Assembly: GCA_965237715.1 (NCBI GenBank)
Contig: CBDEGM010000003.1
Coordinates: forward strand, 1,746,375-1,810,374
Direction: 5' to 3'
Length of the DNA: 64,000 nucleotides
DNA from: Acidobacteriota bacterium
Lineage (GTDB): Bacteria; Acidobacteriota; UBA6911; RPQK01; CBDEGM01
The notes beneath the pieces are model-generated. The model made no database searches. It worked only from the letters and a program-made list of their open reading frames with translations, and was not told where the DNA came from. This document shows, one piece after another, positions 6,070 to 56,048 of this stretch (positions are counted from its first letter, which is position 1; each line of letters starts with the position of its first letter). Position numbers and translations under genes: made by a program.

Positions 6070-6077
6070 ACCGACAG

Positions 6078-28605: not shown

Positions 28606-28687
28606 GAGTTTGGCGAATGCATATGGTCCGAGGCGATCGTCGTGAGCATAAAGCCCCCTAAGCCTGCTGGATGCTTCGCGAAACGAT

Positions 28688-30336: not shown

Positions 30337-31555
30337 CGTAAGGTAAAAATATTCGGTCGGGCAGCGGATCCTTAGGATAGAAGGGCTCATGGGCGTGCGA
30401 GCATCGGAATCTCAGGCGATTTCCGTTGAGAAACCAGCTTTTGGAAACGGGCTCCCGGTGTGAGGTCGTCGCTCCGGCACAGCGGTGCTGACTCGACCTT
30501 CTCCCCAGTCTTATGGAGTGTATCCGAATTCAAGCAGCGTCTCGATAGTAGTATCGAAGCAAGCCACCGAGCCTGGGACGGCAACTTAATTCGCCGTCCT
30601 TGCGACCAACTTCATCTCCCGCATCAATGATTCGGTTCGCGAGTCCCTGATGATTCCGTTCGTGGTGAAAGTGCTCTCCGAACTCTCTCAAGGCCCGACG
30701 CAATGACGCTTCACCAAAGAAGATCATACGGTTGAGACATTCAGATTTCAGGGAGCGCATGAAGCGTTCCAGATGAGCATTGAGATTAGGACTCTTGGGA
30801 GGTAAGACTACCGCCTCGATGTCGCTGGACTTCAAGATCTGACGCAACGGCAAGTGCTTCGTGTCACGGTCAAGGATGACGTGGGCCGAGCTGCGGAAAA
30901 AGCCGTCGACACAGCCGGTCAGGTTCCTTCCGAGTTGCTGCATCCATTCGGAGTTGGGGTGAGGCGTCGCACCCGCGATTTCAATGCGCCGCGTCTTTAG
31001 ATGCATCACCACAAGGACGTAGAACGTGACCAGTCCTGACCGAGTCCAGACCTCAACGGTCGTAAAGTCGGCGGCTGCGATCGAATCCCAGTGAGCAGCA
31101 AGGAAGGTACGCCAGGCCGTGCGGCTCTCGCGCTCTGGAGCTGGCTCGATGCCGTGGGCTTTGAGAATGTTGCCAACCGTGGTGTCAGAAATGTGGAAGC
31201 CCAGGTTGGCTAAAGCACCCTGGATACGGTCATAGCCCCAGCTAGGATTCTCCTGAGCCATGCGCAGAGCCAAGTCCACAATCTGTTGTCGAATGCGTGG
31301 CCGGCCAACGGATTGCCTCTTGTCTGAGTGATCCCACTTGCGAGCGATAAGCTCTCGATGCCAGCGCAGAAGCGTGTCGGGCCTGACGATCTTGGCCAGT
31401 TTGCCGAGGCTTTTTCGGCCCAGCACCTTGCCCTTGACGGCCAAGCGTCGACGCTGGCCGTCGTTGAGCAGAATGCGGCGCTTGCCGAGCTTTTCTCTGA
31501 GTACCTGATTCTCAGTCAAAAGATACTCGATCGCGTCCTGCTGGTCTCTGTTGAT
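30337..31555 (-). mobile_element. IS481-like copy 7 (minus), 5' end removed by MITE copy c
   Basis: Right-end IR at 30337; homology stops at 31555, where the MITE TIR begins. Confidence 0.75.
30530..31519 (-). CDS. IS481-like transposase (ORF starts about 25 aa into the protein)
   Basis: 329 aa identical to the 359-aa family. Confidence 0.7.
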   Translation of the reverse strand: MTENQVLREKLGKRRILLNDGQRRRLAVKGKVLGRKSLGKLAKIVRPDTLLRWHRELIARKWDHSDKRQSVGRPRIRQQIVDLALRMAQENPSWGYDRIQGALANLGFHISDTTVGNILKAHGIEPAPERESRTAWRTFLAAHWDSIAAADFTTVEVWTRSGLVTFYVLVVMHLKTRRIEIAGATPHPNSEWMQQLGRNLTGCVDGFFRSSAHVILDRDTKHLPLRQILKSSDIEAVVLPPKSPNLNAHLERFMRSLKSECLNRMIFFGEASLRRALREFGEHFHHERNHQGLANRIIDAGDEVGRKDGELSCRPRLGGLLRYYYRDAA

Positions 31556-31556
31556 G

Positions 31557-31684
31557 GTACTGTCAAGTTAAGTGGAATTCTCGGGTTTTGGAGGCGAAAT
31601 CGGTCGTCGGTCGAACGTAGAATCAACAATTTAGGGACTTGCCAAGGCGCTGATTAGGCACCAAACCGGTTAACTTGACAGTAC
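31557..31684. mobile_element. MITE copy c (128 bp, TA-flanked, variant-2 interior)
   Basis: TIRs GTACTGTCAAGTTAAG / GTTAACTTGACAGTAC. Confidence 0.6.
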
Positions 31685-31898
31685 CCTAAAAAGGGCTTGA
31701 GAGACGGGCGTGTGAAAACGGTACGCCAACGCCACGCAGAAGCGTCTCTGCCAACCGAAGCCCCTCACCAGAGCATCGGCAAGCGCCCGGGATTTGGGCG
31801 GAAAACGGGGACGAGATCCACAAAAAACGTAGCAATATCAGAGATATAAGGGCGTGGCGGTGGGCGCAGTCTGGAGCGAACCCGTCTCTGGCCCGATT

Positions 31899-32100: not shown

Positions 32101-34165
32101 GTGCGCGCGCACCGGATGCGCTGCGAATCGCAGCATCGATCCGGACAACGGGGTTCCTGCCGGCGGATGGGGTTCGCGCCGAACTACGGTGTCTTTCGCG
32201 GGTCGAGCAGCCCTATCTCAGTGGATGTCGATGAGGTAGTGATATCGGCGCACGAGACAGCGGCTGTCGTCAAGGCTCATCAGGTTGCGGAGGAATGCGT
32301 TGCAACACTTAGCTCGAAGGGTCGCCAACATCAGTGTGCCGCAGCAAGCGGCGTGAGAGATGGGAGTAGGCCTCCCGCAACCGGCTTGCAGGAGCAGGTT
32401 GCAAACCACCGTAAGTGGCTGTGGTTAAAAGCCGCGGTCGTGAGCGTTACGGAAAAGGTGCTCTAGAAGCATCAGGTGTGGATCAGGAAGACGAACACAA
32501 GTGAACCACCGTTCAAGTGCCGAAAGGACGAGATGGTGTCGAAACCGGGGAGTTGGTGTTGCCCCGGGACGAATCTGGCGGAAACCTGTCTACTGGTCAG
32601 GTGGCACCCGGCATAGAGGTGGCGTGAGCTTGATCTGGGCTCTCATGTTGAACTGCGGGAACCTGGAGCAACGATGCTAAGAGAAAGGCACAAGCAGAGA
32701 ACCTGCGAGGCCGACAGTATCGAAGCGTTGCCCAGGGGCGGACAAGCTCGTAGTAGCGATGAGGCTGCCGTAATGGCAGCGGAGCGAAGGGGCTTGGTCA
32801 CTCGGCTACAGACAAGCGGCCAACTGCTAGGCAGGAGGAGCCCTTGAAAGTAGCAAAGCCATTTGAGGTTTCTAAGAAGCTGGCAGGGCAAGCATACTTG
32901 GAGGTGAAGTCCAAAGGAGGTGCCGCAGGAGTCGATGGCGAGTCGCTTGAACTCTTCGAGCACAACTTGAAGAACAACCTCTATCGAATCTGGAACCGGC
33001 TGTGCTCCGGGAGCTATTTTCCACCACCCGTGAAAGCCGTGCCAATCCCGAAGAAATCGGGGGGCACGCGTGTTCTCGGAGTGCCTGCGGTCTCTGATCG
33101 AATCGCACAGACAGTGGTGAAGCAAGCCCTGGAGCCGATACTGGAACCGGTGTTCGATGAGGATTCTTTCGGCTATCGACCGGGAAAGTCTGCCCATGAC
33201 GCGATTGCCATCACCCGGAAACGGTGTTGGCGATACGACTGGGTGGTGGAGTTCGATATCCGCGCCCTGTTCGACAACATTGACCACGAACTGCTCATGA
33301 AGGCGTTACGCCACCATTGTCAGTGTCGTTGGGTGTTGTTGTACGTGGAGCGCTGGTTGCAGGCTCCACTTGAGCAGCCCGGCGGCAGTCTACAGGCGCG
33401 CGACAAAGGCACACCGCAAGGTGGAGTTGTGAGCCCTATTCTGGCAAATCTGTTCTTGCACTACGCGTTTGACGCGTGGGTGAGACGCCAACTGCCGGGG
33501 GTTCCATTTTGTCGATACGCCGACGATGGGCTGCTGCACTGCAAGAGCCAGTCTCAGGCGGAATACGTGATGAGCCTTATCTCGGAACGCTTCCGTGAGT
33601 GTGGGTTGGAGATCCATCCCGACAAATCGTCGATCGTCTATTGCAAGGATGTGAATCGCCTGGAAGAGCATTCGCGAATCAGCTTTGATTTCCTTGGTTA
33701 CACTTTCCGTCCGCGACGGTGTGTGAACAAGAAAGGGCAGGTTCACCCGAACTTTCTTCCTGCGATCAGTATCTCCTCGAAGAAGGAGATCAATCGATGC
33801 ATGCGTAGCTGGCATGTCCAGCTCAAGAACGAGAAGACGTTGTTGGATCTGTCTCAGATGTTCAATCCGAAACTCCGTGGTTGGCAAGCCTGCTATGGTT
33901 GCTTCCACGCGTCGGCACTGCGTCAACTGTGGCGGAACTTCAACCGGTATCTTGTGCAGTGGGTGCGAAGGAAACTCAAAAGATTTTCTGGGCATCGGCA
34001 ACGGGCGAGGCGTTACCTCGACCAGATTGCCCGTGCCAATCCGCATCTATTTATTCATTGGCGTCTTGGAGTCTTTCCTTGTGGCTTGAGTGATAGGAGC
34101 CGGATGAGCTGAGAGGTTCACGTCCGGTTCTTGGAGGGGCTGGGGGTGAGACTCCCCCGGCCTAC
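32101..34165 (+). mobile_element. Group II intron (5' GUGCG; domain V at 34097-34130; ORF in domain IV)
   Basis: Domain V GAGCCGGAUGAGCUGAGAGGUUCACGUCCGGUUC with the AGC triad; the 3' boundary is approximate. Confidence 0.7.
32844..34112 (+). CDS. Group II intron reverse transcriptase/maturase
   Basis: RT domains 0-7 with YADD; maturase X domain; 422 aa. Confidence 0.9.
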   Translation: MKVAKPFEVSKKLAGQAYLEVKSKGGAAGVDGESLELFEHNLKNNLYRIWNRLCSGSYFPPPVKAVPIPKKSGGTRVLGVPAVSDRIAQTVVKQALEPILEPVFDEDSFGYRPGKSAHDAIAITRKRCWRYDWVVEFDIRALFDNIDHELLMKALRHHCQCRWVLLYVERWLQAPLEQPGGSLQARDKGTPQGGVVSPILANLFLHYAFDAWVRRQLPGVPFCRYADDGLLHCKSQSQAEYVMSLISERFRECGLEIHPDKSSIVYCKDVNRLEEHSRISFDFLGYTFRPRRCVNKKGQVHPNFLPAISISSKKEINRCMRSWHVQLKNEKTLLDLSQMFNPKLRGWQACYGCFHASALRQLWRNFNRYLVQWVRRKLKRFSGHRQRARRYLDQIARANPHLFIHWRLGVFPCGLSDRSRMS

Positions 34166-34736
34166 TCAACCATCTTCTTCAACCACAACAAGGAAACTAG
34201 TTCGCCACCTCTTCGGTACATTTGCCCCCTTGATCTCTATGATGGACCGGAACTCCCCGCCGATGCTAGCGTGCCCGCTTACGCCGATTCATGCACCAAT
34301 GCCCTTCAACTAGTGTAGCGATCGGGACCCTCATTTCACTTGCGAAAAGTTTCCCCATTTTTCAAAAAGTTCACCCGTTCCACTTGTTAATCTTCCTAAC
34401 TCAACCATGTCAATTGGTTAGCAGAATCTCACCTGAATTTTTGGGGAAACTCCTGCAAGTGGCATGTACTAAAAAATCGGGGGAAAAAAAGGGAGGAAGG
34501 GCAGAGAAATTTAGGCGGACAAGCGGCCCTGAAAATGCATTATGCCGCGCGGGAGCGCAATGTCCGGAGCGACAGCATTTTACAACAGAGCATGAGCTGG
34601 CTACAATAACGGTCCGCTGAGATGGAGGCGTAAGCTTCCCCAGAAAAGACCCCATCCAAAAGTAGAATTTTCTGGCCCAAGGACAGAAGATGGGACAGGT
34701 TTCGCAGCAGATCGGGGTGACCGAGCAGACCTACTT

Positions 34737-36362: not shown

Positions 36363-36443
36363 CTGATTTTCTGGAGGTTACCCTGATTGACGTACTAGCT
36401 AAGTCGTTGATTTTCCATGCTGGCTAGAATTGATTTCGCATCG
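36349..36443. mobile_element. MITE copy b (variant 1), truncated by an IS903-group insertion
   Basis: One TIR plus about 80 bp of interior; the reverse complement matches copy a. Confidence 0.5.
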
Positions 36444-36825
36444 ACGCGTTGTTGCACAATTCCGGTCGGGGTCACGGACCGATCCCAGTCCTGTTTGAAT
36501 GCTATCGAATTCGCACTGACTCAGGCATGCCCCGGCTTGACATACGATTCAGCACCTCACATTTGATGATGGCCTCGACCCGTTGATTGTCGAATCGTCG
36601 GGCCGACAGCTTAGGCCCAAACAACGTCTTGAACCTCGACATCGCATTCTCTGCAAGGCTTTGCCTGGTGCAACCACTGGAGATGCGCCATTCATATCGA
36701 CCGAGTCTCCTTATTTCTCGTAGATGGGCATCCCGCATTGCCCGCCAGGCAGGCGGGTCCACACTTTCACTCAGCCGTGCACTGCGTCGCGGAGGGATGG
36801 TGGCGACAGCCTCCCGCTCGAGTTC
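36444..36825 (-). mobile_element. IS903-group fragment (IR plus the transposase C-terminal 86 codons)
   Basis: Homology to 39048-39430 stops at 36825. Confidence 0.65.
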
Positions 36826-39047: not shown

Positions 39048-40111
39048 ACGCGTTGTTGCACAATTCCGGTCGGGTCACGGACCGATCCCAGTCCTGTTTG
39101 AATGCTATCGAATTCGCACTGACTCAGGCATGCCCCGGCTTGACATACGATTCAGCACCTCACATTTGATGATGGCCTCGACCCGTTGATTGTCGAATCG
39201 TCGGGCCGACAGCTTAGGCCCAAACAACGTCTTGAACCTCGACATCGCATTCTCTGCAAGGCTTTGCCTGGTGCAACCACTGGAGATGCGCCATTCATAT
39301 CGACCGAGTCTCCTTATTTCTCGTAGATGGGCATCCCGCATTGCCCGCCAGGCAGGCGGGTCCACACTTTCACTCAGCCGCGCACTGCGTCGCGGAGGGA
39401 TGGTGGCGACAGCCTCCCGCTCGAGTATCGATTGATAACAGGCCCTCGTGTCATAGGCCCCGTCGCCCGAGACTTGAACGATGCGGCCCGGAATCTGATC
39501 CAGCAGGGCCGGCAACAGACGACAGTCGTGGACCCGTCTCGGTGGAACCTCCACCGCCACAATCTCTTTCGTCCTCTCATCGACACCCAGGTGCAGCTTG
39601 CGCCAGGCTCTGCGCCGGCCATGTCGATGCTTTCGGACGTGCCCTTCACCCGAGCCGTACACTCTCAGGCCCGTCGCATCCACAACCACGTGCCGAGGCC
39701 GACTGCTTGGGCTAACAGTCAAGAACGTCGCCAAGGAACTCTGTCGTCTACTGAGAGTGCTGTAGTCTGGAACTGGCAGATCGAGTCTGAGCAACTCCAG
39801 GAGCGAAGAAACGAAGCCCTGCGTCGACCGAAGGCTAAGATGCAACACCGACTTCAATATCAGCGCACACTGAATGGCCGTGTCGGAGTAAACCTTCGGA
39901 GCGCTGGGGCCCTTGGGCGGGTCGGCGTTCCGCCAGGCGGCAACGGCGTCCTCATCGAACCAAAAGGTCAGACGCCCCCTGGCGATCAGCGCCCGATTGT
40001 AGTCTGACCAGTTGCGTACTCGGTACCGGAACGTGTATTGATTCGGCGTCATTCCTCATGCTGGCACCCTGGCCCATCGGAGACAAGCGGACGTGCCGAA
40101 GCGATTTATGC
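39048..40111 (-). mobile_element. IS903-group (IS5 family) IS, full copy of about 1064 bp, IRs CGCGTTGTTGCA(C/T)AA
   Basis: IRs at both ends. Confidence 0.8.
39105..40052 (-). CDS. IS903-group transposase (315 aa)
   Basis: IS903-like core (VVDATGLRVYGSGEGHVRKHRHGRRRAWRKLHL), DDE, C-terminal MPESVRIR. Confidence 0.85.
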   Translation of the reverse strand: MTPNQYTFRYRVRNWSDYNRALIARGRLTFWFDEDAVAAWRNADPPKGPSAPKVYSDTAIQCALILKSVLHLSLRSTQGFVSSLLELLRLDLPVPDYSTLSRRQSSLATFLTVSPSSRPRHVVVDATGLRVYGSGEGHVRKHRHGRRRAWRKLHLGVDERTKEIVAVEVPPRRVHDCRLLPALLDQIPGRIVQVSGDGAYDTRACYQSILEREAVATIPPRRSARLSESVDPPAWRAMRDAHLREIRRLGRYEWRISSGCTRQSLAENAMSRFKTLFGPKLSARRFDNQRVEAIIKCEVLNRMSSRGMPESVRIR

Positions 40112-40202
40112 AACAACGCGTTTCGTTGTAACAAAAGCCAGCTCCGCTGATGGTCAAGCCTCCGGAGCCTTAGTCCTAGTAACAATTCCAAAAGGTACGG
40201 GG

Positions 40203-43200
40203 TCAATCTCCGGAAAATGCTTCAAGCTGGCTTGAGTTCGGATGTATCCGATCCGTGTAGAGGTGCCGTTTAAAACGATTGTCGTCAAGGCGATAGATCG
40301 CAGTGTGACGCAAGCGGCCACCAAACCCAGAGCCCACTTGAATCCCGCCGTAGGCACTCTTCTCACCAGCGATCACCCAGATTGCTGAGAGATCTTGCCG
40401 GTTGAGCATCTGCAAAAATGCGTCGCGATCGACAAGAGCCCCTGCGGGGCCAGATTCAACGACGGACGGATCATAGAATGTGCCTTGTCCATCTGAGCCG
40501 ACAAAAATCAGCGATCTCCCACTCGACAGCCGAAGTCCCATTTTCTCGGCTAGCCAGGGAGCAGGTATTTTGAATATAATCGTCTGATCGATTGAGTAGT
40601 CATAGTCGCCGCTCTCGCATGCGTAGGAGGCGATCGTTGGGCGTGTTGGCACGGCGAAGGCCTGCTGATCGTCGTGCGAACTCCACCGTCCGAATTCGCT
40701 CATTTCTGGGTGCCAAGGATATTCTCCGAGGTGAAAATACCCAGAATAAAGTTCGATCTTTGGGAATGAGCTGGGATCTGTCAGAATTTTGTCCTGGAGA
40801 CTTTTGACCATCTTAGCTTGGTCTTTGCGGCGTACGACGATGCAGGTAAGCCGAAACCACGTTTCCCGCTGAATCTCCCTCTTCCCGGCCCGCACGCCAG
40901 CACCTTTCCATGTTGAAAATCCCGAGAGGGCAAGCCATCTTCGGCCCGTCTTTGGATTACACAAATCAATCAGAGCTTTATTGTTGATGATGTCGCTGTC
41001 ACTGTCCAGCCAAGCAAGACGCTCGTGGGGATCCACCGCGCGAAGCGTAGGATTGAAAGGCACCCACCACGTTTTGCGCCACTCGGCCCAACCCTTGTAA
41101 TAGGTCTGAGTAGTCAAGAAGGACGGATCGATATCGCATAGTCCGACTTCACGGGCTCCTCGATATAGGGGTGGTTCGTCATCGTCTTGTTTCCATGGAT
41201 TGTCTAAGAAGGCAAGATTGTCCGCCATGCGGGCTACAAGTTCTTGGAGTGCAAGCCATTGGTACTTCTTGCCGATGCGTTCGATCCTGTGGCCGTTTCG
41301 GTCGTAGCCGCAGAAGTGATTGTCGAAATCACCGAAGCGTTTCGATGTCCAACCCAGTTCATGGGCTCGCTTGCAGATCCATCGACGGCCCCAATGAACG
41401 TCGAAGTGTGCGGCTCGATCCGCAAAGAGTTTGTGCCGGAAAAAGTCCTTTGCTCGAACTCGGAAGTCTTCCCATTGGTCCGACGCCATCGTCTGCTGAA
41501 GAGCCCCCTCGGCGGCGGCCAACCGCTCCGCCTCCGGACTGGACTGATGGCCGTGAACATCCTTAATTCCCTCGGTGGTGCTAACATATTCCTTAAAGGC
41601 CACAAGTTGGTCTGCGGTTGCACTGGCGACAAATTCCTGTATCCAGGTTCTGCAAATGTCGAGCGAAGTCGGTAGCGGCATTGCTCCGATTTTTGCAGGA
41701 CTCCATTTGTTCACCTTGTGATCAACTACATATCGCGCAAAGTCGCCCTCATGGACGGTGGAGAATACAATCGCGTCGCCAACGGACCCGCGCCCATGAT
41801 CCTCGGTATAGCCCTTAATCAATTCGTCCGGTACCGGTTCGATAGGCCAAGGACTTTGATATGGCGGCCGTGCAAGCGCAAGGTCGATTGAGCTATCCAG
41901 TACGCCGCAGTACGCTGCGTACTCTACAATACATCGGGCATGGTCGCGCAGAAGCGCATTCGCCGGTGGTTTCCCGTTGGCAAAGACCGTGTCGAAAACC
42001 ACCTGGGCAAGTTTGCCGAGTCCCGCTTCCCGCGTTCCTTGAAGAGCGGCGCCATAGCAAGCAGCCAACAGACGCTCAAGAACATACGGATCATTCACAC
42101 TCACAAAGTCGCCCAGTAAACGAGCGGCGAGCAAAAGCCGCCGACTCAGCACGCTAGCAAGGGCCTTGGTAGCCTTATCCCTGACCTCCCGGTGCGATGT
42201 GGCAAGGAACCAAGTGAGCATTGTCGAAGCCAAGTACGCACGATCCCCGTCTATATGCTCAAGATCACTTTGAAGCGCCCAGGAAATCAGTGTCTTGACA
42301 GGCTCATCGAAGCCACGCTCTGCCAAATAGACCGACCAGCGCGCATCGCGCTCCGGCATCGTCATTCCCATGAGCCGCTTATGGACAAAGAGTGCATTGA
42401 ATTTGTTAGACGTCTCTGTGCTGATTGCGACAAGCAGGTCGGTCAACTCGTCCGCTTGAACCAAGCCTCGAACTAGTTCGAACGTGTGACTAGTAAAGTG
42501 AGACTGCTCACGCCAAAGGAGGCTATTCAGAAAAGCGTCCCGCACTGTATACGAAGCGTCAGATCCAACATCCAATATCTCAACGCGGGTCCGTTCCGGG
42601 AGTTGAATGGTCATCGCCTCGATGATTCCGGCGCGTTCATAATTCTCCGTCCCGAAAACACACTTATGGAGAGGCTGGTCGGCTTGAAAGGAACTAGCCA
42701 CATTGTGGGTATTGAGATGGTCATCGAGCAAGTGCGACGCTATAGCATGATCGCTGAAACGCTCGAACGTGAAGCGAACCATTTCAGCAAGCGATCCATC
42801 ATCTTGCCGCAAGGGTTCGACGGTGAGAAGACCTCCGTTTTCCAGCTGCGCTAGCAGACTCTTCTCAAGGCTTCCTCTCGAGTCGAGAACCGATTCAAAC
42901 AGAGTAACTACGTCGCTTTTCGCGGCATATCCTTTGCCGGCGCCCACGAGTAATTGCGCAAAGCTGGCGATAGCCTTTGATACGATTTCCAGATGAGGGT
43001 CGAGCCTCATTCCCCGGTTCAGCGACTGAGATACAGCCTCGTTGTAGAATTTAAAGATCGATGTGACGCCGCGCAAACCTCTAGGAAATTCGGTTTTTCC
43101 CTCCTTTTCCAAGGAGTCGCAGCACATTTTCAAGAAAAGCGGATTTTCAAACTCGGGAACGAGATTAGGTGCCCCAGGTCGGACCATTCCTCGTTTGTCG

Positions 43201-44702
43201 AGGTACACCTTCGCAGCTTCGCCCCCGTTCGCCGCAAAGCCTCTGTGATCGACACGGAGGAGCCGATCTTCATCTATGTCATCCGGGATCACATGCCGAA
43301 CATAGGTCGAGCGGCATGACACGATCACGCTGACTCGCGGGAAAGCCTCGAAAGTATTGAGAAAGGCTGCGAGACGCTGCGGCCAGACATTAACGCCGTT
43401 GCGTTCGTTCAAAGCATCGATGCACACAATTGCTCTCAAGCTCGCGGCCTGCGCTGCTGCGTCCAGACTCGCGAGGAAGTATTTGAACTGCACCGTTGGT
43501 GGATGATCGAGTTGATCGCGAATCTGCGGCCACAGTTCAGCGTCGATAAACGCTTCGCCGAGAAAGAGCAGCGCTGGCCCACCTTCGTGAAGTTGATGCT
43601 CCACGATGTCGGCAAGCAAATGGGACTTACCGATGCCGGCCGGGCCCTGAAGCAGAACTGCCTGCGCGTTGGTCAGCCGCCAACGGTTCGAAGCGAGGTC
43701 GCTCTTGATTTCATGCAGTACCTCCATCAGTTCATAGAGGGTATGTTGCACCAAGCGTTCGGACTTGATGCCCATACTGCCGGGCTTGGAAGGCGGAAGG
43801 TCGTAGGACCAACGAAGGGCCTTTCTAGCGAGGTCGAGACCGTCTGCAGCTGCGGCACTCCAATCGGTTACAGGATAGGGTTGGTCGGGGCCGATTGGAT
43901 CCCCGTCAAGCAAAGACGTCAGAGCACAAATTGCCTCATCCAGAGGATCGATATGGGTTTCGGCTTCCTCCGCACCTGTTCCGCGTATGGCTTTTACGGC
44001 GCCGCTTCCTTTTTCGTTGACGCGTATAAACCACCCATCGATCTGCCTCTGAAGCTCAGGATGGCGTGCGAAGGCGAGGAAGTCCTGTCTGATTGGGAGT
44101 TCAACGTTTGTTTCGGGAGTGTATCGGCTGCCCAGAGACGCCCTTGCCTTCCCAAATTGCTCCTTGAACCAAGTCGTTGTTAGGGCCGCGTGGCCGAACC
44201 AGTACAGGACTCGACCTGAGTGGGCGGGGTCTTCTCTGACCAGACGAAGGCTGAGTTCGCTCTTGCCCCACAACCTGATAGTCAGGTCACGCTTCTGCAA
44301 TGCGGCAAACTCTTCCCATTTCGTGCACCAAGCGTCCCACTTCTCTTGTGCGGTCTTGCCCTTGCCGGTTCGGGAATCGGGAAGATCGAACGGAAGGCAG
44401 ACGATGTAATTAACGAGATTCGGGTGCCTATTCAACGCCGTGCATATTGAAACGTCAAGCTGTGCTGTCAGGCTTGCATTCCAGCTAAAGAGGTACTTGG
44501 CTTGCCATCCGACTTCCGTCCCGTCTGCACGGCGGCGGTAGCATTCGACACCAGCGTCGCCGCCCCGGCCTTTCCGATAGAATTTTCCTTCCGTGGATGT
44601 TGGCTCCAAAGAGGCGAGTTGGCAACACATTTCCTCAAACCCGGCGTGACGGCTTCCGTCAACCGGGCGAATCTTCTCGAAATTGATGTCTGGTAGGCTC
44701 AT
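40203..44702 (-). CDS. Avs4-like antiviral STAND NTPase: N-terminal Mrr-type PD-(D/E)xK nuclease, P-loop STAND ATPase and a long helical C-terminal sensor (1499 aa)
   Basis: Mrr-cat-like GGDAGVEC..(13)..GWQAKY; Walker A GPAGIGKSHLL; Walker B IVCIDALNE; sensor-1 VSVIVSCRST; about 900 aa of C-terminal helical region. Confidence 0.55.
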   Translation of the reverse strand: MSLPDINFEKIRPVDGSRHAGFEEMCCQLASLEPTSTEGKFYRKGRGGDAGVECYRRRADGTEVGWQAKYLFSWNASLTAQLDVSICTALNRHPNLVNYIVCLPFDLPDSRTGKGKTAQEKWDAWCTKWEEFAALQKRDLTIRLWGKSELSLRLVREDPAHSGRVLYWFGHAALTTTWFKEQFGKARASLGSRYTPETNVELPIRQDFLAFARHPELQRQIDGWFIRVNEKGSGAVKAIRGTGAEEAETHIDPLDEAICALTSLLDGDPIGPDQPYPVTDWSAAAADGLDLARKALRWSYDLPPSKPGSMGIKSERLVQHTLYELMEVLHEIKSDLASNRWRLTNAQAVLLQGPAGIGKSHLLADIVEHQLHEGGPALLFLGEAFIDAELWPQIRDQLDHPPTVQFKYFLASLDAAAQAASLRAIVCIDALNERNGVNVWPQRLAAFLNTFEAFPRVSVIVSCRSTYVRHVIPDDIDEDRLLRVDHRGFAANGGEAAKVYLDKRGMVRPGAPNLVPEFENPLFLKMCCDSLEKEGKTEFPRGLRGVTSIFKFYNEAVSQSLNRGMRLDPHLEIVSKAIASFAQLLVGAGKGYAAKSDVVTLFESVLDSRGSLEKSLLAQLENGGLLTVEPLRQDDGSLAEMVRFTFERFSDHAIASHLLDDHLNTHNVASSFQADQPLHKCVFGTENYERAGIIEAMTIQLPERTRVEILDVGSDASYTVRDAFLNSLLWREQSHFTSHTFELVRGLVQADELTDLLVAISTETSNKFNALFVHKRLMGMTMPERDARWSVYLAERGFDEPVKTLISWALQSDLEHIDGDRAYLASTMLTWFLATSHREVRDKATKALASVLSRRLLLAARLLGDFVSVNDPYVLERLLAACYGAALQGTREAGLGKLAQVVFDTVFANGKPPANALLRDHARCIVEYAAYCGVLDSSIDLALARPPYQSPWPIEPVPDELIKGYTEDHGRGSVGDAIVFSTVHEGDFARYVVDHKVNKWSPAKIGAMPLPTSLDICRTWIQEFVASATADQLVAFKEYVSTTEGIKDVHGHQSSPEAERLAAAEGALQQTMASDQWEDFRVRAKDFFRHKLFADRAAHFDVHWGRRWICKRAHELGWTSKRFGDFDNHFCGYDRNGHRIERIGKKYQWLALQELVARMADNLAFLDNPWKQDDDEPPLYRGAREVGLCDIDPSFLTTQTYYKGWAEWRKTWWVPFNPTLRAVDPHERLAWLDSDSDIINNKALIDLCNPKTGRRWLALSGFSTWKGAGVRAGKREIQRETWFRLTCIVVRRKDQAKMVKSLQDKILTDPSSFPKIELYSGYFHLGEYPWHPEMSEFGRWSSHDDQQAFAVPTRPTIASYACESGDYDYSIDQTIIFKIPAPWLAEKMGLRLSSGRSLIFVGSDGQGTFYDPSVVESGPAGALVDRDAFLQMLNRQDLSAIWVIAGEKSAYGGIQVGSGFGGRLRHTAIYRLDDNRFKRHLYTDRIHPNSSQLEAFSGD

Positions 44703-45115
44703 TCAGGTGACGCCGCAGCCAGCGTTGGCTCGCTCAGTACTTTGGGTGACTCGGGTGGTTTGTCCGACATTTTTTGAGCGATCGTGGGGATATCCTGCTG
44801 GATTTTCTCCGTGCTCGGTGTCAACGCTTCCTGCAGCAGTGCATCAAGCAGGCGGCGGCGGGTGTCGTCGCCGCTGGCGAGGCTTGCCTCCAGCCGGTCG
44901 CATAGGATCATTAGCTCATCGACCTTGACGACGATGCGGTGCTGCTCCGGGAGGGGTGGGAGGGGGAATGGCGAGTTCGCAAAATATTCGATTGGCACCC
45001 GCTTCTGTCCAGCGGTGCCGGTCATTCTAGAAATGCCCGTCTCAATGAAGTGTGGGCACTTGAGGAAGACGATGATGTAATCCGGATTGACGATGAGCGG
45101 TCGAACAATGTGCAA
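44699..45115 (-). pseudogene. Type I restriction-modification HsdS C-terminal fragment; its stop overlaps the ATG of the Avs-like gene
   Basis: SPFPLPPLPEQHRIVVKVDELMILCDRLEASL; upstream part replaced by MITE copy d. Confidence 0.55.
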
Positions 45116-45123
45116 TTCGGTAC

Positions 45124-45245
45124 TGTCAAGTTAACCGATTTGGTGTCTAATCAGCGCCTCGGCCACTCCCTAAGTTGTTGATTCTACATTCGACCGCCGA
45201 CCGTTTCCGCCTCCAAAACCCGAGAACTCCACTTAACTTGACAGT
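45124..45245. mobile_element. MITE copy d (122 bp, variant 2)
   Basis: TA-CTGTCAAGTTAAC...GTTAACTTGACAG-TA. Confidence 0.6.
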
Positions 45246-45499
45246 ACCAGTTACCGGGTTCATCCTTGAAATTCGCTCCGATCGGATGAATCCAATAGTC
45301 GTACGTCTTACCCGAAGCGCCTTCCCACTTAATGATGTCAGCCATCGATTTTTCCCTCTGAACTCAACTACTACTAGTTGTCATTTTCCACCGAAGCTCC
45401 CGGCGCTCGGGGGCGAGGTGTCGCGGATCACCTTCACCGGCCCGCTCAGGCCGGAGCGGGCTTCGGCGATGGGAACCAAGCCGTCTTGTTGTTTACGCT

Positions 45500-45991
45500 T
45501 CATGCGACCCCCGCAATCCGTTGGAGCAGTCGATTCCCAATTTCCCGCAAGTAGGTCAGATACCTTTCGCGTAAGTCGTCAGAATCTTGGACGGCCTTCG
45601 TATCGAGCTTCCGACACTCAGCAGCTACCTGGTTGTGGTTGAATTCCATCGGTTCGGATGAGTGGGCAAATTTGTTTCGTATTCGCCGGACAGTATGCAG
45701 ATCTTTTCTAATTTTGCGATCATATAGGCCGAGCGCGAACGCAATATCGACCTTTGCCTTGAAAGTCGAAAGCGGTCCATAAGTCTTGAATATTTCGTCT
45801 ATTTCGTCCCGGCGATTCAACGCAACAAATCTTGTCATGATCGCATCACGTAGCCTGTCTTCGAAATACGCTGCGGCAAGAATAGCGGCAGCCCTGTCGC
45901 TCTCTTCGGCAAGTGCGATCTGGTAGTCATAGGCACGCTCGATGATTTGTCTGCGCGTTTTTTCTTCCTTACTCATTTTCCAGCGGCACAC
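45500..45991 (-). CDS. DUF4145-like (HEPN-superfamily) protein
   Basis: HTVRRIRNKFAH (Rx4-6H) in an all-helical 163-aa protein. Confidence 0.45.
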   Translation of the reverse strand: MCRWKMSKEEKTRRQIIERAYDYQIALAEESDRAAAILAAAYFEDRLRDAIMTRFVALNRRDEIDEIFKTYGPLSTFKAKVDIAFALGLYDRKIRKDLHTVRRIRNKFAHSSEPMEFNHNQVAAECRKLDTKAVQDSDDLRERYLTYLREIGNRLLQRIAGVA

Positions 45992-46230
45992 ACTCCATGT
46001 GGTGCAACGCCTGGAGGCGTGGCTTCGCGGAGCGCCTGGGCCGGGCCGCCCAAGCCGAACACGACTTCCCCGATCGGAACTAACTCGCCGTGTTGACGCT
46101 GCATGGCTTTATTCTCCCATGCGGCTCAGACAAGACAGGCGGCGGGAGAAGGGTTACAGGCCCAGGTGGCCGTCCTGGGAGCGCCCGCCCCCGTTTTAAC
46201 GGGTCTGGGACGGTCGTGCTGATAATGGCG

Positions 46231-47058
46231 TTAGATACCAGCATGCACGACTCCTTCCAATTGTTGCGCCATTAGGATCATCTTCGCGGGCGGGCCTTGG
46301 AAGACGATGCCCGCTTTCTCAAGTTTCATCTCGTCCAGGTAGCGCCATCCTTCAAACACGAGTTTGGTTCCCTCCCTTTTGAGAAATGCCTCGACGAAGC
46401 CCAGTGACTCGCCTTGCCGGGTGGCCTGAGCGAAGCGGCCCCACTCTGTGGACAGCAATTCTTCTGGATACCAGACCTCCGGGTTGCATGGAAATCCATT
46501 GATCATCTCCGCATGCGTCGGTTTGCAGATCCGAGTGATGTTCCTGGGACCCAACGCGGCATCCAATTTGACCACGACATCCCGCACCGTGGGGGATCCC
46601 TCGTGCAGCAGCTTAATTTGATACTGGTGGAAGGCTTCGTTATATTCCGCCTTCCGTTCGCTGTAATCGGGCGGCAGTTCCCGATGCCGACCGAGGTTTA
46701 GCGTCGCCTGCCCCGCCGCCTTACCGATGCGGTTTGCCGTCAAATCCCCCAACACTCCGTCCTGATAGGCGAGTTCGGCCTTGGTGCGGCTCTGATCATC
46801 CCACTTCATGAACAGCTCGCCGAGGTCGTGGCCCCAGGCCTCTTTTCGCGGAATGGCTCTCGGCCCCTTTTTGAGGTACACTTTCAGCAGCAGTTCCATG
46901 GTTTCATGCGCGGCGGTGTAGGCGGCGCTGATGAATCCCAGGTTGTACGGTGGGTACATATCCTGGAGATGTGATGCGGACAGTACTGCCGCCGCGTCTA
47001 GTTTGCTAGTGGCGTAAGCAAATGCTGCCGTATTACTAACTCCACCCGGATCACTCAT
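46231..47058 (-). CDS. Hypothetical 275-aa protein with a possible N-terminal HEPN-like motif (RKEAWGH)
   Basis: Rx5H motif in a helical N-terminal region; otherwise no recognisable family. Confidence 0.3.
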   Translation of the reverse strand: MSDPGGVSNTAAFAYATSKLDAAAVLSASHLQDMYPPYNLGFISAAYTAAHETMELLLKVYLKKGPRAIPRKEAWGHDLGELFMKWDDQSRTKAELAYQDGVLGDLTANRIGKAAGQATLNLGRHRELPPDYSERKAEYNEAFHQYQIKLLHEGSPTVRDVVVKLDAALGPRNITRICKPTHAEMINGFPCNPEVWYPEELLSTEWGRFAQATRQGESLGFVEAFLKREGTKLVFEGWRYLDEMKLEKAGIVFQGPPAKMILMAQQLEGVVHAGI

Positions 47059-47185
47059 TTCTCTGGCGACTCTCCCTCCATCGGTAGAATCTGCTGCTTC
47101 TCCGATGGATTGGATCTCACCCGCTGCGCCTTCTCGAAAGTCACGTCTTCGGCCAGGGGGTTGTCTACGCGCTTCCCGCCCAAGG

Positions 47186-47274
47186 GTACTGTCAAGTTAA
47201 CCGATTTGGTGTCTAATCAGCGCCTCGGCCACTCCCTAAGTTGTTGATTCTACATTCGACCGCCGACCGTTTCC
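47186..47274. mobile_element. MITE copy e (variant 2), 3'-truncated by insertion of IS481-like copy 1
   Basis: Identical to copy d up to ...CCGACCGTTTCC, then the IS IRL. Confidence 0.55.
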
Positions 47275-48691
47275 CGTAAGGTCAAAATATTCAGCCGACC
47301 CACAAGTCTCTATTGTGCAAAAAGTTGTAACCGTCACGGCAAACAGAAGTCAGCCTTGGTTGAGCCCCAATGTTTTCCCCCTTTGCGTCTGAGCACTTGA
47401 CGTGAGCATCTAATCAACCATGAACTTCGTGCTCAGGCCCTGGCAGCAGCTGCTCCTGATCTTGGCCGGTTGGATCAACAGAGACCAGCAGGACGCGATC
47501 GAGTATCTTTTGACTGAGAATCAGGTACTCAGAGAAAAGCTCGGCAAGGGCCGCATTCTGCTCAACGACGGCCAGCGTCGACGCTTGGCCGTCAAGGGCA
47601 AGGTGCTGGGCCGAAAAAGCCTCGGCAAACTGGCCAAGATCGTCAGGCCCGACACGCTTCTGCGCTGGCATCGAGAGCTTATCGCTCGCAAGTGGGATCA
47701 CTCAGACAAGAGGCAATCCGTTGGCCGGCCACGCATTCGACAACAGATTGTGGACTTGGCTCTGCGCATGGCTCAGGAGAATCCTAGCTGGGGCTATGAC
47801 CGTATCCAGGGTGCTTTAGCCAACCTGGGCTTCCACATTTCTGACACCACGGTTGGCAACATTCTCAAAGCCCACGGCATCGAGCCAGCTCCAGAGCGCG
47901 AGAGCCGCACGGCCTGGCGTACCTTCCTTGCTGCTCACTGGGATTCGATCGCAGCCGCCGACTTTACGACCGTTGAGGTCTGGACTCGGTCAGGACTGGT
48001 CACGTTCTACGTCCTTGTGGTGATGCATCTAAAGACGCGGCGCATTGAAATCGCGGGTGCGACGCCTCACCCCAACTCCGAATGGATGCAGCAAGCCGGA
48101 AGGAACCTGACCGGCTGTGTCGACGGCTTTTTCCGCAGCTCGGCCCACGTCATCCTTGACCGTGACACGAAGCACTTGCCGTTGCGTCAGATCTTGAAGT
48201 CCAGCGACATCGAGGCGGTAGTCTTACCTCCCAAGAGTCCTAATCTCAATGCTCATCTGGAACGCTTCATGCGCTCCCTGAAATCTGAATGTCTCAACCG
48301 TATGATCTTCTTTGGTGAAGCGTCATTGCGTCGGGCCTTGAGAGAGTTCGGAGAGCACTTTCACCACGAACGGAATCATCAGGGACTCGCGAACCGAATC
48401 ATTGATGCGGGAGATGAAGTTGGTCGCAAGGACGGCGAATTAAGTTGCCGTCCCAGGCTCGGTGGCTTGCTTCGATACTACTATCGAGACGCTGCTTGAA
48501 TTCGGATACACTCCATAAGACTGGGGAGAAGGTCGAGTCAGCACCGCTGTGCCGGAGCGACGACCTCACACCGGGAGCCCGTTTCCAAAAGCTGGTTTCT
48601 CAACGGAAATCGCCTGAGATTCCGATGCTCGCACCCCATGAGCCCTTCTATTCTAAGGATCCGCTGCCCGACCGAATATTTTTACCTTACG
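47275..48691 (+). mobile_element. IS481-like IS copy 1 (1417 bp), imperfect 25-bp IRs CGTAAGGT(C/A)AAAATATTC(A/G)G(C/T)CG
   Basis: Ends defined by comparing five full copies. Confidence 0.85.
47420..48499 (+). CDS. IS481-like rve-type DDE transposase (359 aa)
   Basis: HTH N-terminus, integrase core with ...SPNLNAHLERFMRSLKSE. Confidence 0.85.
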   Translation: MNFVLRPWQQLLLILAGWINRDQQDAIEYLLTENQVLREKLGKGRILLNDGQRRRLAVKGKVLGRKSLGKLAKIVRPDTLLRWHRELIARKWDHSDKRQSVGRPRIRQQIVDLALRMAQENPSWGYDRIQGALANLGFHISDTTVGNILKAHGIEPAPERESRTAWRTFLAAHWDSIAAADFTTVEVWTRSGLVTFYVLVVMHLKTRRIEIAGATPHPNSEWMQQAGRNLTGCVDGFFRSSAHVILDRDTKHLPLRQILKSSDIEAVVLPPKSPNLNAHLERFMRSLKSECLNRMIFFGEASLRRALREFGEHFHHERNHQGLANRIIDAGDEVGRKDGELSCRPRLGGLLRYYYRDAA

Positions 48692-51951: not shown

Positions 51952-53369
51952 CGTAAGGTCAAAATATTCAGCCGACCCACAAGTCTCTATTGTGCAACAA
52001 GTTGTAACCGTCACGGCAAACAGAAGTCAGCCTTGGTTGAGCCCCAATGTTTTCCCCCTTTGCGTCTGAGCACTTGACGTGAGCATCTAATCAACCATGA
52101 ACTTCGTGCTCAGGCCCTGGCAGCTGCTGCTCCTGATCTTGGCCGGTTGGATCAACAGAGACCAGCAGGACGCGATCGAGTATCTTTTGACTGAGAATCA
52201 GGTACTCAGAGAAAAGCTCGGCAAGGGCCGCATTCTGCTCAACGGCGACCAGCGTCGACGCTTGGCCGTCAAGGGCAAGGTGCTGGGCCGAAAAAGCCTC
52301 GGCAAACTGGCCAAGATCGTCAGGCCCGACACGCTTCTGCGCTGGCATCGAGAGCTTATCGCTCGCAAGTGGGATCACTCAGACAAGAGGCAATCCGTTG
52401 GCCGGCCACGCATTCGACAACAGATTGTGGACTTGGCTCTGCGCATGGCTCAGGAGAATCCTAGCTGGGGCTATGACCGTATCCAGGGTGCTTTAGCCAA
52501 CCTGGGCTTCCACATTTCTGACACCACGGTTGGCAACATTCTCAAAGCCCACGGCATCGAGCCAGCTCCAGAGCGCGAGAGCCGCACGGCCTGGCGTACC
52601 TTCCTTGCTGCTCACTGGGATTCGATCGCAGCCGCCGACTTTACGACCGTTGAGGTCTGGACTCGGTCAGGACTGGTCACGTTCTACGTCCTTGTGGTGA
52701 TGCGTCTAAAGACGCGGCGCATTGAAATCGCGGGTGCGACGCCTCACTCCAACTCCGAATGGATGCAGCAAGCCGGAAGGAACCTGACCGGCTGTGTCGA
52801 CGGCTTTTTCCGCAGCTCGGCCCACGTCATCCTTGACCGTGACACGAAGCACTTGCCGTTGCGTCAGATCTTGAAGTCCAGCGACATCGAGGCGGTAGTC
52901 TTACCTCCCAAGAGTCCTAATCTCAATGCTCATCTGGAACGCTTCATGCGCTCCCTGAAATCTGAATGTCTCAACCGTATGATCTTCTTTGGTGAAGCGT
53001 CATTGCGTCGGGCCTTGAGAGAGTCCGGAGAGCACTTTCACCACGAACGGAATCATCAGGGACTCGCGAACCGAATCATTGATGCGGGAGATGAAGTTGG
53101 TCGCAAGGACGGCGAATTAAGTTGCCGTCCCAGGCTCGGTGGCTTGCTTCGATACTACTATCGAGACGCTGCTTGAATTCGGATACACTCCATAAGACTG
53201 GGGAGAAGGTCGAGTCAGCACCGCTGTGCCGGAGCGACGACCTCACACCGGGAGCCCGTTTCCAAAAGCTGGTTTCTCAACGGAAATCGCCTGAGATTCC
53301 GATGCTCGCACGCCCATGAGCCCTTCTATCCTAAGGATCCGCTGCCCGACCGAATATTTTTACCTTACG
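51952..53369 (+). mobile_element. IS481-like copy 3, separated from copy 2 by a single base (head-to-tail tandem)
   Basis: ...ttaccttacg-c-cgtaaggtcaaaat... Confidence 0.85.
52097..53176 (+). CDS. IS481-like transposase
   Basis: 359 aa. Confidence 0.85.
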   Translation: MNFVLRPWQLLLLILAGWINRDQQDAIEYLLTENQVLREKLGKGRILLNGDQRRRLAVKGKVLGRKSLGKLAKIVRPDTLLRWHRELIARKWDHSDKRQSVGRPRIRQQIVDLALRMAQENPSWGYDRIQGALANLGFHISDTTVGNILKAHGIEPAPERESRTAWRTFLAAHWDSIAAADFTTVEVWTRSGLVTFYVLVVMRLKTRRIEIAGATPHSNSEWMQQAGRNLTGCVDGFFRSSAHVILDRDTKHLPLRQILKSSDIEAVVLPPKSPNLNAHLERFMRSLKSECLNRMIFFGEASLRRALRESGEHFHHERNHQGLANRIIDAGDEVGRKDGELSCRPRLGGLLRYYYRDAA

Positions 53370-55778: not shown

Positions 55779-56048
55779 CCGCCTGCTTCCGTATACAGGG
55801 TAGCACGCAGAAACGTATAACCGTATACGGTAGAGTTCAGGCGCTTCCCGTCTCGACCAGCTCTGGTCGGAGCTTGTATTCCCCGTAGAGCACAACGTTG
55901 TCCCACTGCTGGAGTCTCCGCTTTGAGTACGGACTCCTCGAGGTGACGGAAAGACGAATCCGGTCCGGCGATAAACGAGGTGGACCCGCAGCTCGTAGGC
56001 GAGGCTCTGGAGGCTTCTGCCACTCTCGTTGCCCGACCTCGCGAATCC

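What the first reader, a model, noticed from the sequence alone, without database searches (positions are those of the whole stretch)
40203..45245. Avs4-like Mrr-nuclease/STAND defence gene translationally coupled to an hsdS remnant
The 1499-aa protein combines an N-terminal Mrr-like PD-(D/E)xK nuclease signature (GGDAGVEC...GWQAKY), a STAND-type P-loop NTPase (GPAGIGKSHLL; IVCIDALNE; sensor-1 Arg) and about 900 aa of helical C-terminal sensor-like region. That is the architecture of the nuclease-STAND antiviral class (Avs type 4). Its ATG overlaps (ATGA) the stop of a type I R-M specificity-subunit C-terminal fragment whose 5' part has been replaced by a MITE. This suggests the gene once sat downstream of an hsd operon. 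Its remaining C-terminal sensor region is unassigned, so it could be a divergent Avs sensor.
Basis: partly seen in the sequence, partly recalled or inferred. Interest (0 to 1): 0.7.

Follow-up and report, generated by a model that had tools for sequence, protein, structure and literature searches.

The report
Avs2 phage sensor, orphaned from restriction operon
This is an intact gene for a known kind of bacterial anti-phage sensor, Avs2 (not Avs4 as first proposed), which probably destroys DNA on detecting a phage packaging enzyme and which here has lost the restriction-modification operon it sits behind in close relatives.

Summary
There is an intact 1499-aa ORF at 40203-44702 (-). Its ATG overlaps (ATGA) the stop of a 138-codon hsdS C-terminal fragment, and that fragment ends at a 130-bp MITE-like repeat.

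The family assignment is wrong. The protein is Avs2 (AVAST type 2), not Avs4:
- PADLOC Avs2 scores 1705 bits over the full length.
- The solved EcAvs2 structure (9o4e) matches at E=1.6e-151 over residues 174-1476.
- The NCBIfam Avs4 model scores only 11 bits against a cut-off of 1500.

The likely mechanism is inferred by homology. The sensor binds the phage large terminase, the protein tetramerises with ATP, and the nuclease degrades DNA, causing abortive infection.

The operon inference is supported. In all 7 relatives of at least 74% identity, avs2 follows an hsdS 3' end with the same ATGA junction. Two of them keep an intact hsdR-hsdM-hsdS-avs2 cassette.

Verdict: an ordinary new member of a known family with a mildly interesting genomic history.

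The parts
40203..44702 (-). avs2: an intact 1499-aa AVAST type 2 protein (coordinates include the stop codon)
   Evidence: ORF found. PADLOC Avs2 PDLC02164 scores 1705.5 bits, covering residues 4-1491 against model positions 2-1502 of 1504. NCBIfam Avs2 scores 940.6 bits against a cut-off of 1000. PDB 9o4e EcAvs2 matches at E=1.6e-151.
44178..44702 (-). N-terminal effector, residues 1-175: an Mrr-like PD-(D/E)xK nuclease with candidate active-site residues E23/E24, D49, E53, Q67 and K69
43701..44183 (-). Helical linker between the effector and the ATPase, about residues 174-334. Homology to EcAvs2 begins here.
   Evidence: The alignment to 9o4e starts at residue 174. The published EcAvs2 and KpAvs2 descriptions include a helical extension or bundle between effector and ATPase (PMC13601566, PMC11564622).
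43302..43700 (-). STAND NTPase core motifs, about residues 335-467: Walker A GPAGIGKS (K359), Walker B IVCIDALNE (D429) and the conserved Arg in VSCRSTY (R464)
   Evidence: Motif positions. The motifs align to EcAvs2 GKAGIGKSHLL, LVFIDAINE and MSVRTTY. Pfam NACHT and AAA_16 give weak hits below their cut-offs.
40206..43301 (-). Rest of the STAND module plus the Avs2-type TPR and C-terminal sensor, about residues 468-1499
   Evidence: Continuous alignment to EcAvs2 residues up to 1473. [quoted passage not shown]
44699..45118 (-). hsdS remnant: the last ~134-138 codons of a type I R-M specificity subunit (end of TRD2, C-terminal conserved helix and tail). Its TGA overlaps the avs2 ATG.
   Evidence: It is 72% identical to residues 425-555 of the 562-aa HsdS in L003.
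45119..45248 (.). 130-bp MITE-like repeat with perfect 16-nt terminal inverted repeats (GGTACTGTCAAGTTAA). It marks the deletion junction.
   Evidence: Other copies lie at 31556-31685 and 28685-28816, with partial copies at 36347 and 47185.
45249..45345 (-). 5' fragment of an unrelated small gene (MADIIKWEGASGKTYDYWIHPIGANFKDEPGN...), cut off at the other edge of the repeat
   Evidence: It has no family hit.
39050..40120 (-). IS element (315-aa DDE transposase) 82 bp downstream of the avs2 stop. It bounds the locus and does not interrupt avs2.
   Evidence: Pfam DDE_Tnp_1_5 and DDE_Tnp_1. Boundaries come from comparison with the copy at 62718-63788.

Best explanation
The gene encodes an Avs2 (AVAST type 2) antiviral STAND NTPase of the commonest architecture. 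It has an N-terminal Mrr-like PD-(D/E)xK nuclease, a helical linker, a STAND ATPase, and the Avs2-type TPR plus C-terminal sensor.

Proposed mechanism, by homology with EcAvs2 and KpAvs2:
1. The sensor pocket binds the ATPase domain of the phage large terminase. Other small phage proteins may also be bound, as with KpAvs2.
2. The ATP-bound STAND domains then assemble into a tetramer.
3. Assembly brings the four N-terminal nuclease domains together.
4. The activated nucleases degrade double-stranded DNA indiscriminately, and the infection aborts.

Historically the gene was the fourth gene of an hsdR-hsdM-hsdS-avs2 cassette that is shared between phyla. In this genome a rearrangement at a MITE-like repeat removed hsdR, hsdM and three quarters of hsdS. 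That left avs2 with about 420 bp of hsdS 3' sequence in front of it.

What is shown: family membership, domain folds, motif conservation, and the ancestral operon with its truncation. What is inferred: the trigger, the DNase activity, the oligomeric state, and whether the orphaned gene is still expressed.
For: - Family: PADLOC Avs2 hits over the full length at 1705 bits, with all six Avs2 models matching and no other Avs model. NCBIfam Avs2 scores 940.6 bits over residues 189-1477. The solved EcAvs2 (9o4e) matches at E=1.6e-151 over residues 174-1476.
- ATPase: the Walker A, Walker B and Arg motifs align to EcAvs2.
[quoted passage not shown] KpAvs2 has the same three-part architecture, its K71A and K337A mutants lose defence, and it degrades DNA non-specifically (PMC11564622). 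Here K69 and K359 occupy the equivalent motifs.
- Sensor pocket: 5 of 9 published EcAvs2 contact residues are kept or conservatively replaced.
- Operon history: hsdR-hsdM-hsdS-avs2 is intact in L004 and L005. L003 has hsdM'-hsdS-avs2'. The window, L006 and L007 carry only remnants. The junction sequence GAATGAGCCT is conserved in all 7 loci. There is no hsdM or hsdR in the window.
Against: - No experiment bears on this particular protein.
- The NCBIfam Avs2 score is just under the equivalog cut-off (940.6 against 1000).
- Four of nine EcAvs2 contact residues differ: T1128 becomes C, R1130 becomes Y, E1462 becomes R, and W1266 falls in a gap. Target range may therefore differ, and KpAvs2 shows that Avs2 proteins can respond to non-terminase triggers.
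- The hsd promoter is gone, no Shine-Dalgarno-like sequence precedes the ATG, and the promoter scan found no more sites than in shuffled sequence. Expression is therefore uncertain.
- KpAvs2 needs accessory genes (a radical SAM protein and Avap2). None is seen next to avs2 here or in the relatives examined.
Confidence: 0.85

Rival explanations
1. One reading: it is an Avs4-type protein, a portal-sensing nuclease-STAND, or an Avs4 relative with a divergent new sensor.
For: The N-terminal nuclease domain is structurally closest to that of EcAvs4. A profile of this domain weakly hits EcAvs4 residues 13-96 at E=0.41. NCBIfam Avs4 matches residues 18-123 at E=0.041.
Against: The similarity is confined to the swappable effector domain. 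The Avs4 profile scores 11 bits against a cut-off of 1500, and no PADLOC Avs4 model hits at E<=1. The ATPase and the entire sensor align to Avs2 profiles and to the EcAvs2 structure. Close relatives swap the nuclease for a PNP_UDP_1 domain while keeping the same sensor, which shows that the effector does not define the family.
Confidence: 0.02
2. The gene is a silent relic. It lost its operon promoter and the translation of its upstream partner, so avs2 is no longer expressed and is on its way to decay, like the disrupted copies in relatives.
For: hsdR, hsdM and 75% of hsdS are deleted. There is no SD-like sequence before the ATG, and promoter-like sites are no more frequent than in shuffles. 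The region is saturated with IS copies. Relatives show decay: avs2 is truncated to 528 aa in L003, its two ends lie about 6 kb too far apart in L002, and many fragmentary N-termini are in the database.
Against: The 1499-codon frame is fully intact, all catalytic and nucleotide-binding motifs are kept, and it matches the PADLOC profile end to end. A second assembly carries it with one substitution. Upstream genes lie on the same strand, so read-through transcription is possible. Stand-alone relatives also lack an SD, so its absence may be normal for these hosts.
Confidence: 0.25
3. Avs2 and the type I R-M system form one functionally integrated system in this clade. The retained hsdS 3' end is then kept because avs2 expression or function needs it, for example through an internal promoter, termination-reinitiation coupling, or an HsdS C-terminal peptide acting as an accessory factor.
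For: All 7 loci of the >=74% clade keep at least the last ~55-135 codons of hsdS with the same ATGA junction, including three with different upstream breakpoints. HsdM (90-91% identity) and HsdR (86%) travel with avs2 across MAGs assigned to different phyla. KpAvs2 needs a small accessory protein that binds its helical linker (PMC11564622).
Against: More distant Avs2 homologues (50-61% identity) stand alone without hsd genes, so Avs2 does not need R-M. The hsdS tail frame is broken by indels in L002, L004 and L006, which argues against a conserved peptide. Adjacency of defence genes to hsdS is a known defence-island pattern, for example Avs type II next to hsdS in S. aureus vSa-beta (PMC12829572). 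Retention of ~300 bp next to a selected gene can be simple linkage.
Confidence: 0.12

Closest known systems
KpAvs2 (Klebsiella pneumoniae Avs2; Bechon et al. 2024, PMC11564622)
   Same: It has the same three-part architecture: an Mrr-family N-terminal endonuclease, a STAND NTPase and an Avs2-type C-terminal sensor, with a helical bundle between nuclease and ATPase. The catalytic Lys of the QxK motif (K71 there, K69 here) and the Walker A Lys (K337 there, K359 here) occupy equivalent motifs.
   Different: KpAvs2 works in a three-gene operon with a radical-SAM protein and Avap2. No such genes flank this avs2 or its close relatives.
EcAvs2 (E. coli Avs2, PDB 9o4e; Evans et al. 2026, PMC13601566)
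   Same: It is homologous from residue 174 to 1476 (E=1.6e-151), covering the helical extension, the STAND ATPase, the TPR domain and the C-terminal sensor. The bridging-ATP and terminase contact residues D981, R1132, E1362 and E1444 are identical here, and E1364 becomes Asp.
   Different: EcAvs2 carries a rare, uncharacterised N-terminal effector. This protein carries the common Mrr-like nuclease instead, and there is no sequence match over residues 1-173. The contacts T1128, R1130, W1266 and E1462 are not conserved.
EcAvs4 (PDB 8dgf; portal-sensing Avs4)
   Different: The ATPase and sensor are unrelated at the family level (NCBIfam Avs4 11 bits against a cut-off of 1500). Avs4 senses portal protein, whereas Avs2 senses terminase.
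Defence genes attached to or embedded in type I R-M loci (for example Avs type II next to hsdS in S. aureus vSa-beta, PMC12829572; embedded genes in the V. cholerae VPI-2 type I R-M, PMC11411939)
   Same: An avs2 gene lies immediately next to hsdS, and in relatives it is co-oriented with a complete hsdRMS set.
   Different: In this clade avs2 overlaps the hsdS stop codon (ATGA) as the last gene of a compact four-gene cassette. In this window the R-M part has been deleted.

Membership tests
Avs2 (AVAST type 2) | Full-length match to Avs2 family profiles | tested here: met
   PADLOC PDLC02164 scores 1705.5 bits, covering residues 4-1491 against model positions 2-1502 of 1504, and all six Avs2 models hit. 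NCBIfam NF041813 scores 940.6 bits over model positions 3-1315 of 1317, slightly under its 1000-bit equivalog cut-off.
Avs2 (AVAST type 2) | Avs2-type sensor (TPR plus C-terminal domain) homologous to the terminase-binding domain of EcAvs2 | tested here: met
   The alignment to 9o4e is continuous to residue 1476. Five of nine published contact residues are retained or conservatively replaced.
Avs2 (AVAST type 2) | STAND NTPase with Walker A, Walker B and a conserved Arg | tested here: met
   GPAGIGKS at 353-360, IVCIDALNE at 425-433 and VSCRSTY at 461-467 align to the EcAvs2 motifs. Pfam NACHT and AAA_16 hits are weak and below their cut-offs.
Avs2 (AVAST type 2) | N-terminal cell-killing effector (most often an Mrr-like nuclease) | tested here: met
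Avs2 (AVAST type 2) | Activation by phage large terminase, tetramerisation and anti-phage defence | not testable with these tools
   This needs co-expression toxicity, plaque or biochemical assays.
Avs4 (AVAST type 4) | Avs4-type ATPase and portal-binding sensor (match to Avs4 profiles over the whole protein) | tested here: not met
   NCBIfam NF041815 Avs4 scores 11 bits against a cut-off of 1500 and matches only residues 18-123. No PADLOC Avs4 model hits at E<=1. The PDB sequence search of the full protein finds only EcAvs2 and not 8dgf.
Avs4 (AVAST type 4) | Mrr-like N-terminal nuclease | tested here: met
   The domain is shared with Avs4, but it is a modular effector that is also typical of Avs2 (PMC13601566).
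Type I R-M specificity subunit (HsdS), functional gene | Two target-recognition domains and two conserved regions, about 400-600 aa | tested here: not met
   Only the last ~134 residues are present, equivalent to residues 422-555 of a 562-aa HsdS. No ATG start or upstream coding sequence remains.
Type I R-M specificity subunit (HsdS), functional gene | Partner hsdM and hsdR genes in the locus | tested here: not met
   tblastn with HsdM and HsdR from relatives finds nothing in the 64-kb window.
MITE (miniature inverted-repeat transposable element) | Short, non-coding, with terminal inverted repeats and multiple copies | tested here: met
   The element is 130 bp with perfect 16-nt TIRs. The TIR occurs 8 times against 0.01 expected, giving 3 complete and 2 partial copies.
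MITE (miniature inverted-repeat transposable element) | Target-site duplication and a parent IS with the same ends | tested here: inconclusive
   No direct repeat flanks any of the three complete copies. All TIR matches in the window belong to the short elements and none lies at an IS end. A parent IS may lie elsewhere in the genome.

The most novel reading that the evidence does not exclude
In this Avs2 clade, avs2 is a true fourth cistron of a horizontally mobile hsdR-hsdM-hsdS-avs2 operon. Its expression is tied to hsdS through the ATGA overlap, by termination-reinitiation or by an internal promoter in the hsdS 3' end. That would explain why every truncated locus still keeps that hsdS 3' end. 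It would amount to a built-in two-layer immune module: restriction first, and abortive infection if restriction fails.
Probability: 0.15. Interest if true: 0.4.

Novelty: new member of a known kind. Interest (0 to 1): 0.22.

Why it matters
For annotation, this is an unnamed MAG protein (no source gives it a name) that can be labelled Avs2 with an Mrr-like nuclease effector. The expected trigger is therefore the phage large terminase rather than the portal protein. Any cloning and phage-challenge experiment should be designed with that in mind.

The family, its architecture and its mechanism are already published, including a cryo-EM structure, so the gene itself adds little.

The modest added value is comparative. 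A compact hsdR-hsdM-hsdS-avs2 cassette with an overlapping stop and start is shared at 76-91% protein identity among MAGs assigned to different phyla. It decays repeatedly from the R-M end while keeping avs2 and the hsdS 3' end. That makes a concrete, testable case for studying co-regulation and co-mobilisation of first-line (R-M) and second-line (abortive) defences.

Tried and rejected
- Pfam on the N-terminal 190 aa and on the C-terminal 848 aa gave no family even at E<=10. phmmer of the N-terminal domain against PDB gave only noise. The nuclease assignment therefore had to come from a profile and a structure model.
- The exact-sequence look-up of the window protein first failed. It succeeded through the identical database entry P0001. 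The look-up for P0121 failed.
- Cluster look-ups gave no names or organism, so the host remains an unidentified Gram-negative-type bacterium (it carries MurJ, glyS and OMP genes) from ENA assembly ERZ26167216.
- The genome and metagenome scans each returned only 2 related loci. The operon survey therefore rests on 7 close and 5 distant loci.
- The N-terminal domain search returned only short fragments. These were useful for the alignment but not for seeing other architectures.
- Gao et al. 2022 (PMC10028730) is not held, so statements about it are cited second-hand from PMC13601566 and PMC11564622.
- The promoter and terminator scan of 39900-47400 gave counts no higher than shuffled sequence. 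I do not claim a promoter.
- Considered and rejected: avs2 truncated by the downstream IS. The IS ends 82 bp after the stop, and the C-terminus ends where homologue P0048 ends.
- Considered and rejected: BrxC-like or other ATPase. No such hits were found.
- Considered and rejected: KpAvs2-type accessory genes. None is present.
Full report
**Observation**

The window holds an uninterrupted 1499-codon ORF at 40203..44702 on the minus strand.
- GGDAGVEC at residues 47-54
- GWQAKY at 65-70
- GPAGIGKSHLL at 353-363
- IVCIDALNE at 425-433
- an Arg in VSCRSTY at 461-467

Directly upstream, the ORF 44699..45115 (-) ends in a TGA that lies inside the sequence gaATGAgc. Its stop and the avs2 start therefore overlap by 4 bp. 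This ORF matches type I specificity-subunit models: PADLOC Specificity_I at E=2.5e-21, Pfam Methylase_S at 20.3 bits, and NCBIfam PRK09737 positions 326-394 of 461.

Immediately 5' of the ORF lies a 130-bp element at 45119-45248 with perfect 16-nt terminal inverted repeats. The repeat sequence occurs 8 times in the window against 0.01 expected by chance.

A second assembly carries the same protein with a single substitution. This argues against an assembly artefact in the reading frame.

**What the protein is**

Profile searches place it in Avs2, not Avs4.
- PADLOC's Avs2 model PDLC02164 aligns to residues 4-1491 over model positions 2-1502 of 1504 at 1705.5 bits. The other five Avs2 models also hit, and no other Avs model hits.
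- NCBIfam Avs2 (NF041813) covers residues 189-1477 at 940.6 bits, just under its 1000-bit equivalog cut-off.
- NCBIfam Avs4 scores 11 bits against a cut-off of 1500 and touches only residues 18-123.
- The only solved structure found by sequence is EcAvs2 (9o4e), at E=1.6e-151, aligned over residues 174-1476.

I mapped the residues that Evans et al. [quoted passage not shown]
- Kept: D981 = D987, R1132 = R1135, E1362 = E1363, E1444 = E1447, and E1364 becomes D1366.
- Not kept: T1128 becomes C1131, R1130 becomes Y1133, E1462 becomes R1465, and W1266 falls in a gap.

The pocket is thus recognisably the same but not identical.

**The N-terminal domain**

Sequence methods alone fail on this domain. 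Pfam finds nothing and phmmer against PDB gives only noise.

An alignment of 36 N-terminal sequences shows that Q28, L29, D49, G51, V52, E53, Q67 and C102 are invariant. F22, E23, E24 and K69 are at least 90% conserved.

A profile built from that alignment weakly hits EcAvs4 residues 13-96 (E=0.41). The match lines up FE..C, G-[VI]-E and GWQ-x-K.

The AlphaFold2 model is confident, with mean pLDDT 90.8 and pTM 0.87.
- By Foldseek, its best PDB match is the EcAvs4 chain 8dgf_A (probability 1.00, TMq 0.61).

These are all PD-(D/E)xK restriction-type nucleases.

This domain is a modular effector and does not mark the family. Close relatives with 60-62% identity over the rest of the protein carry a PNP_UDP_1 domain in its place. 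[quoted passage not shown]

KpAvs2 has exactly this architecture. It loses defence with K71A (nuclease) or K337A (Walker A), and it degrades DNA non-specifically during infection (PMC11564622). The corresponding lysines here are K69 and K359.

**Mechanism (inferred by homology, not shown for this protein)**

1. The sensor pocket binds the ATPase domain of a phage large terminase. Alternative small phage proteins may also be bound, as for KpAvs2.
2. The ATP-bound STAND module tetramerises.
3. The N-terminal nucleases are brought together and cleave dsDNA indiscriminately.
4. The infected cell dies or arrests before phage release.

**Genomic history**

The window is part of a 1.4-Mb metagenome contig (ENA ERZ26167216). 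I examined the context of avs2 in relatives.
- In the relatives with 80% (L004) and 76% (L005) identical Avs2, the gene is the last member of a co-oriented hsdR-hsdM-hsdS-avs2 cassette.
- In a Latescibacterota MAG (L003), a 562-aa hsdS ends with the same ATGA overlap, and avs2 is itself truncated.
- The window's remnant is 72% identical to residues 425-555 of that HsdS.
- Three loci (the window, L006 and L007) keep only an hsdS 3' remnant, each with different upstream sequence.
- A seventh locus, L002, shows at least 55 codons of the hsdS tail before the held DNA ends.

All seven loci share the junction GAATGAGCCT.

HsdM is 90-91% identical and HsdR 86% identical between these cassettes, while the HsdS target-recognition domains are only about 40% identical.

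More distant Avs2 homologues (50-61% identity) have no hsd genes nearby. They sit next to other defence genes such as McrBC, PLD/MZB and cas genes.

The window holds no hsdM or hsdR.

Homology to the intact hsdS stops at the edge of the 130-bp repeat. On the other side of the repeat is the 5' fragment of an unrelated small gene. Both genes are cut at the repeat and no target-site duplication is visible. The simplest reading is a deletion or rearrangement at or between repeat copies.

**Is the orphaned gene still active?**

This is unknown.
- In favour of activity: the frame and all motifs are intact, and the upstream genes are on the same strand.
- Against: the operon promoter is gone, no SD-like sequence precedes the ATG (though stand-alone relatives also lack one), and promoter-like sites are no more frequent than in shuffled sequence.
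- The IS downstream ends 82 bp after the stop and does not truncate the gene.

**Comparison with what is known, and novelty**

The protein is a new, unnamed member of a well-characterised family. Avs2 has been tested experimentally (EcAvs2, KpAvs2) and solved by cryo-EM (9o4e).

Adjacency of Avs type II to hsdS has a published precedent in S. aureus vSa-beta (PMC12829572). Defence genes embedded in type I R-M loci are a known pattern.

What I did not find described is the compact four-gene cassette with an overlapping hsdS stop and avs2 start, shared across phyla and decaying from the R-M end. This is a modest comparative observation based on 7 loci.

**Verdict**

Novelty is low, and interest is about 0.2.

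Noticed in passing
window 53493-56111 (-), flanked by IS copies at 52097-53176 and 56194-57273 (+): An 872-aa AAA_13 ATPase matches the PADLOC candidate single-gene defence system PDC-S06 (244 bits, E=7e-73), with weaker LmuB-like hits. It sits between two direct copies of the same 359-aa-transposase IS, which looks like a composite transposon.
   Followed up: partly
window 47420-48499, 52097-53176, 56194-57273, 60435-61514 (359-aa ORFs); 39050-40120 and 62718-63788, plus partial copies at 29463-30337, 36443-36823 and 57466-58074: The IS load is extreme. There are four copies of an rve_3-type IS and several full or partial copies of a DDE_Tnp_1 IS, plus IS240-type and Mutator-type transposases, all within about 35 kb around avs2. 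A 359-aa transposase with the same Pfam pattern also lies next to avs2 in relative L004.
   Followed up: partly
window 47185-47276: A second copy of the 130-bp repeat is identical to the first ~92 nt of the copy at 45119 and in the same orientation. It then breaks off next to the 359-aa-transposase IS, and its other end is not found anywhere in the window. The two direct copies bracket a 1.9-kb segment that holds an MtlR-like gene and a 275-aa unknown gene.
   Followed up: partly
window 28685-28816 and 36347-~36470: A second subfamily of the short repeat shares only the terminal inverted repeats with the 45119 and 31556 copies and has a different internal sequence. No copy shows a target-site duplication.
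   Followed up: no
window 45500-45991 (-) and 46231-47058 (-): Upstream of the locus on the same strand are a 163-aa protein with a weak MtlR/MltR-family match (27 bits) and a 275-aa protein with no family in Pfam, NCBIfam or PADLOC. Both lie between the two repeat copies, and their function is unknown.
   Followed up: partly
window 32362-34170 (+): There is a group II intron. Rfam domains D1-D4 (112 bits) and the Intron_gpII domain (59.6 bits) flank a 422-aa reverse transcriptase/maturase ORF at 32844-34112.
   Followed up: partly
L002 (Acidobacteriota MAG OZ253580.1) 180 to 8001: The avs2 start lies at position 180, but residues 611-1499 begin at 8001. The two parts are about 6 kb further apart than expected, so the gene appears to be split by an insertion. 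I did not examine the intervening sequence.
   Followed up: no
L006 1800-5411 (-) and 14881-15797 (+): Next to the avs2 relative P0019 are a 1203-aa protein with a weak reverse-transcriptase hit, HigB/HigA-like genes, and a ThsB_TIR gene followed by an 8xMP gene. This is a dense defence island.
   Followed up: no
proteins P0082, P0086, P0087, P0093: These are close Avs2 relatives (60-62% identity over 89% of the query) in which the Mrr-like nuclease is replaced by a ~270-aa purine/uridine phosphorylase-like (PF01048) N-terminal domain. It is a recent effector swap on the same sensor.
   Followed up: partly
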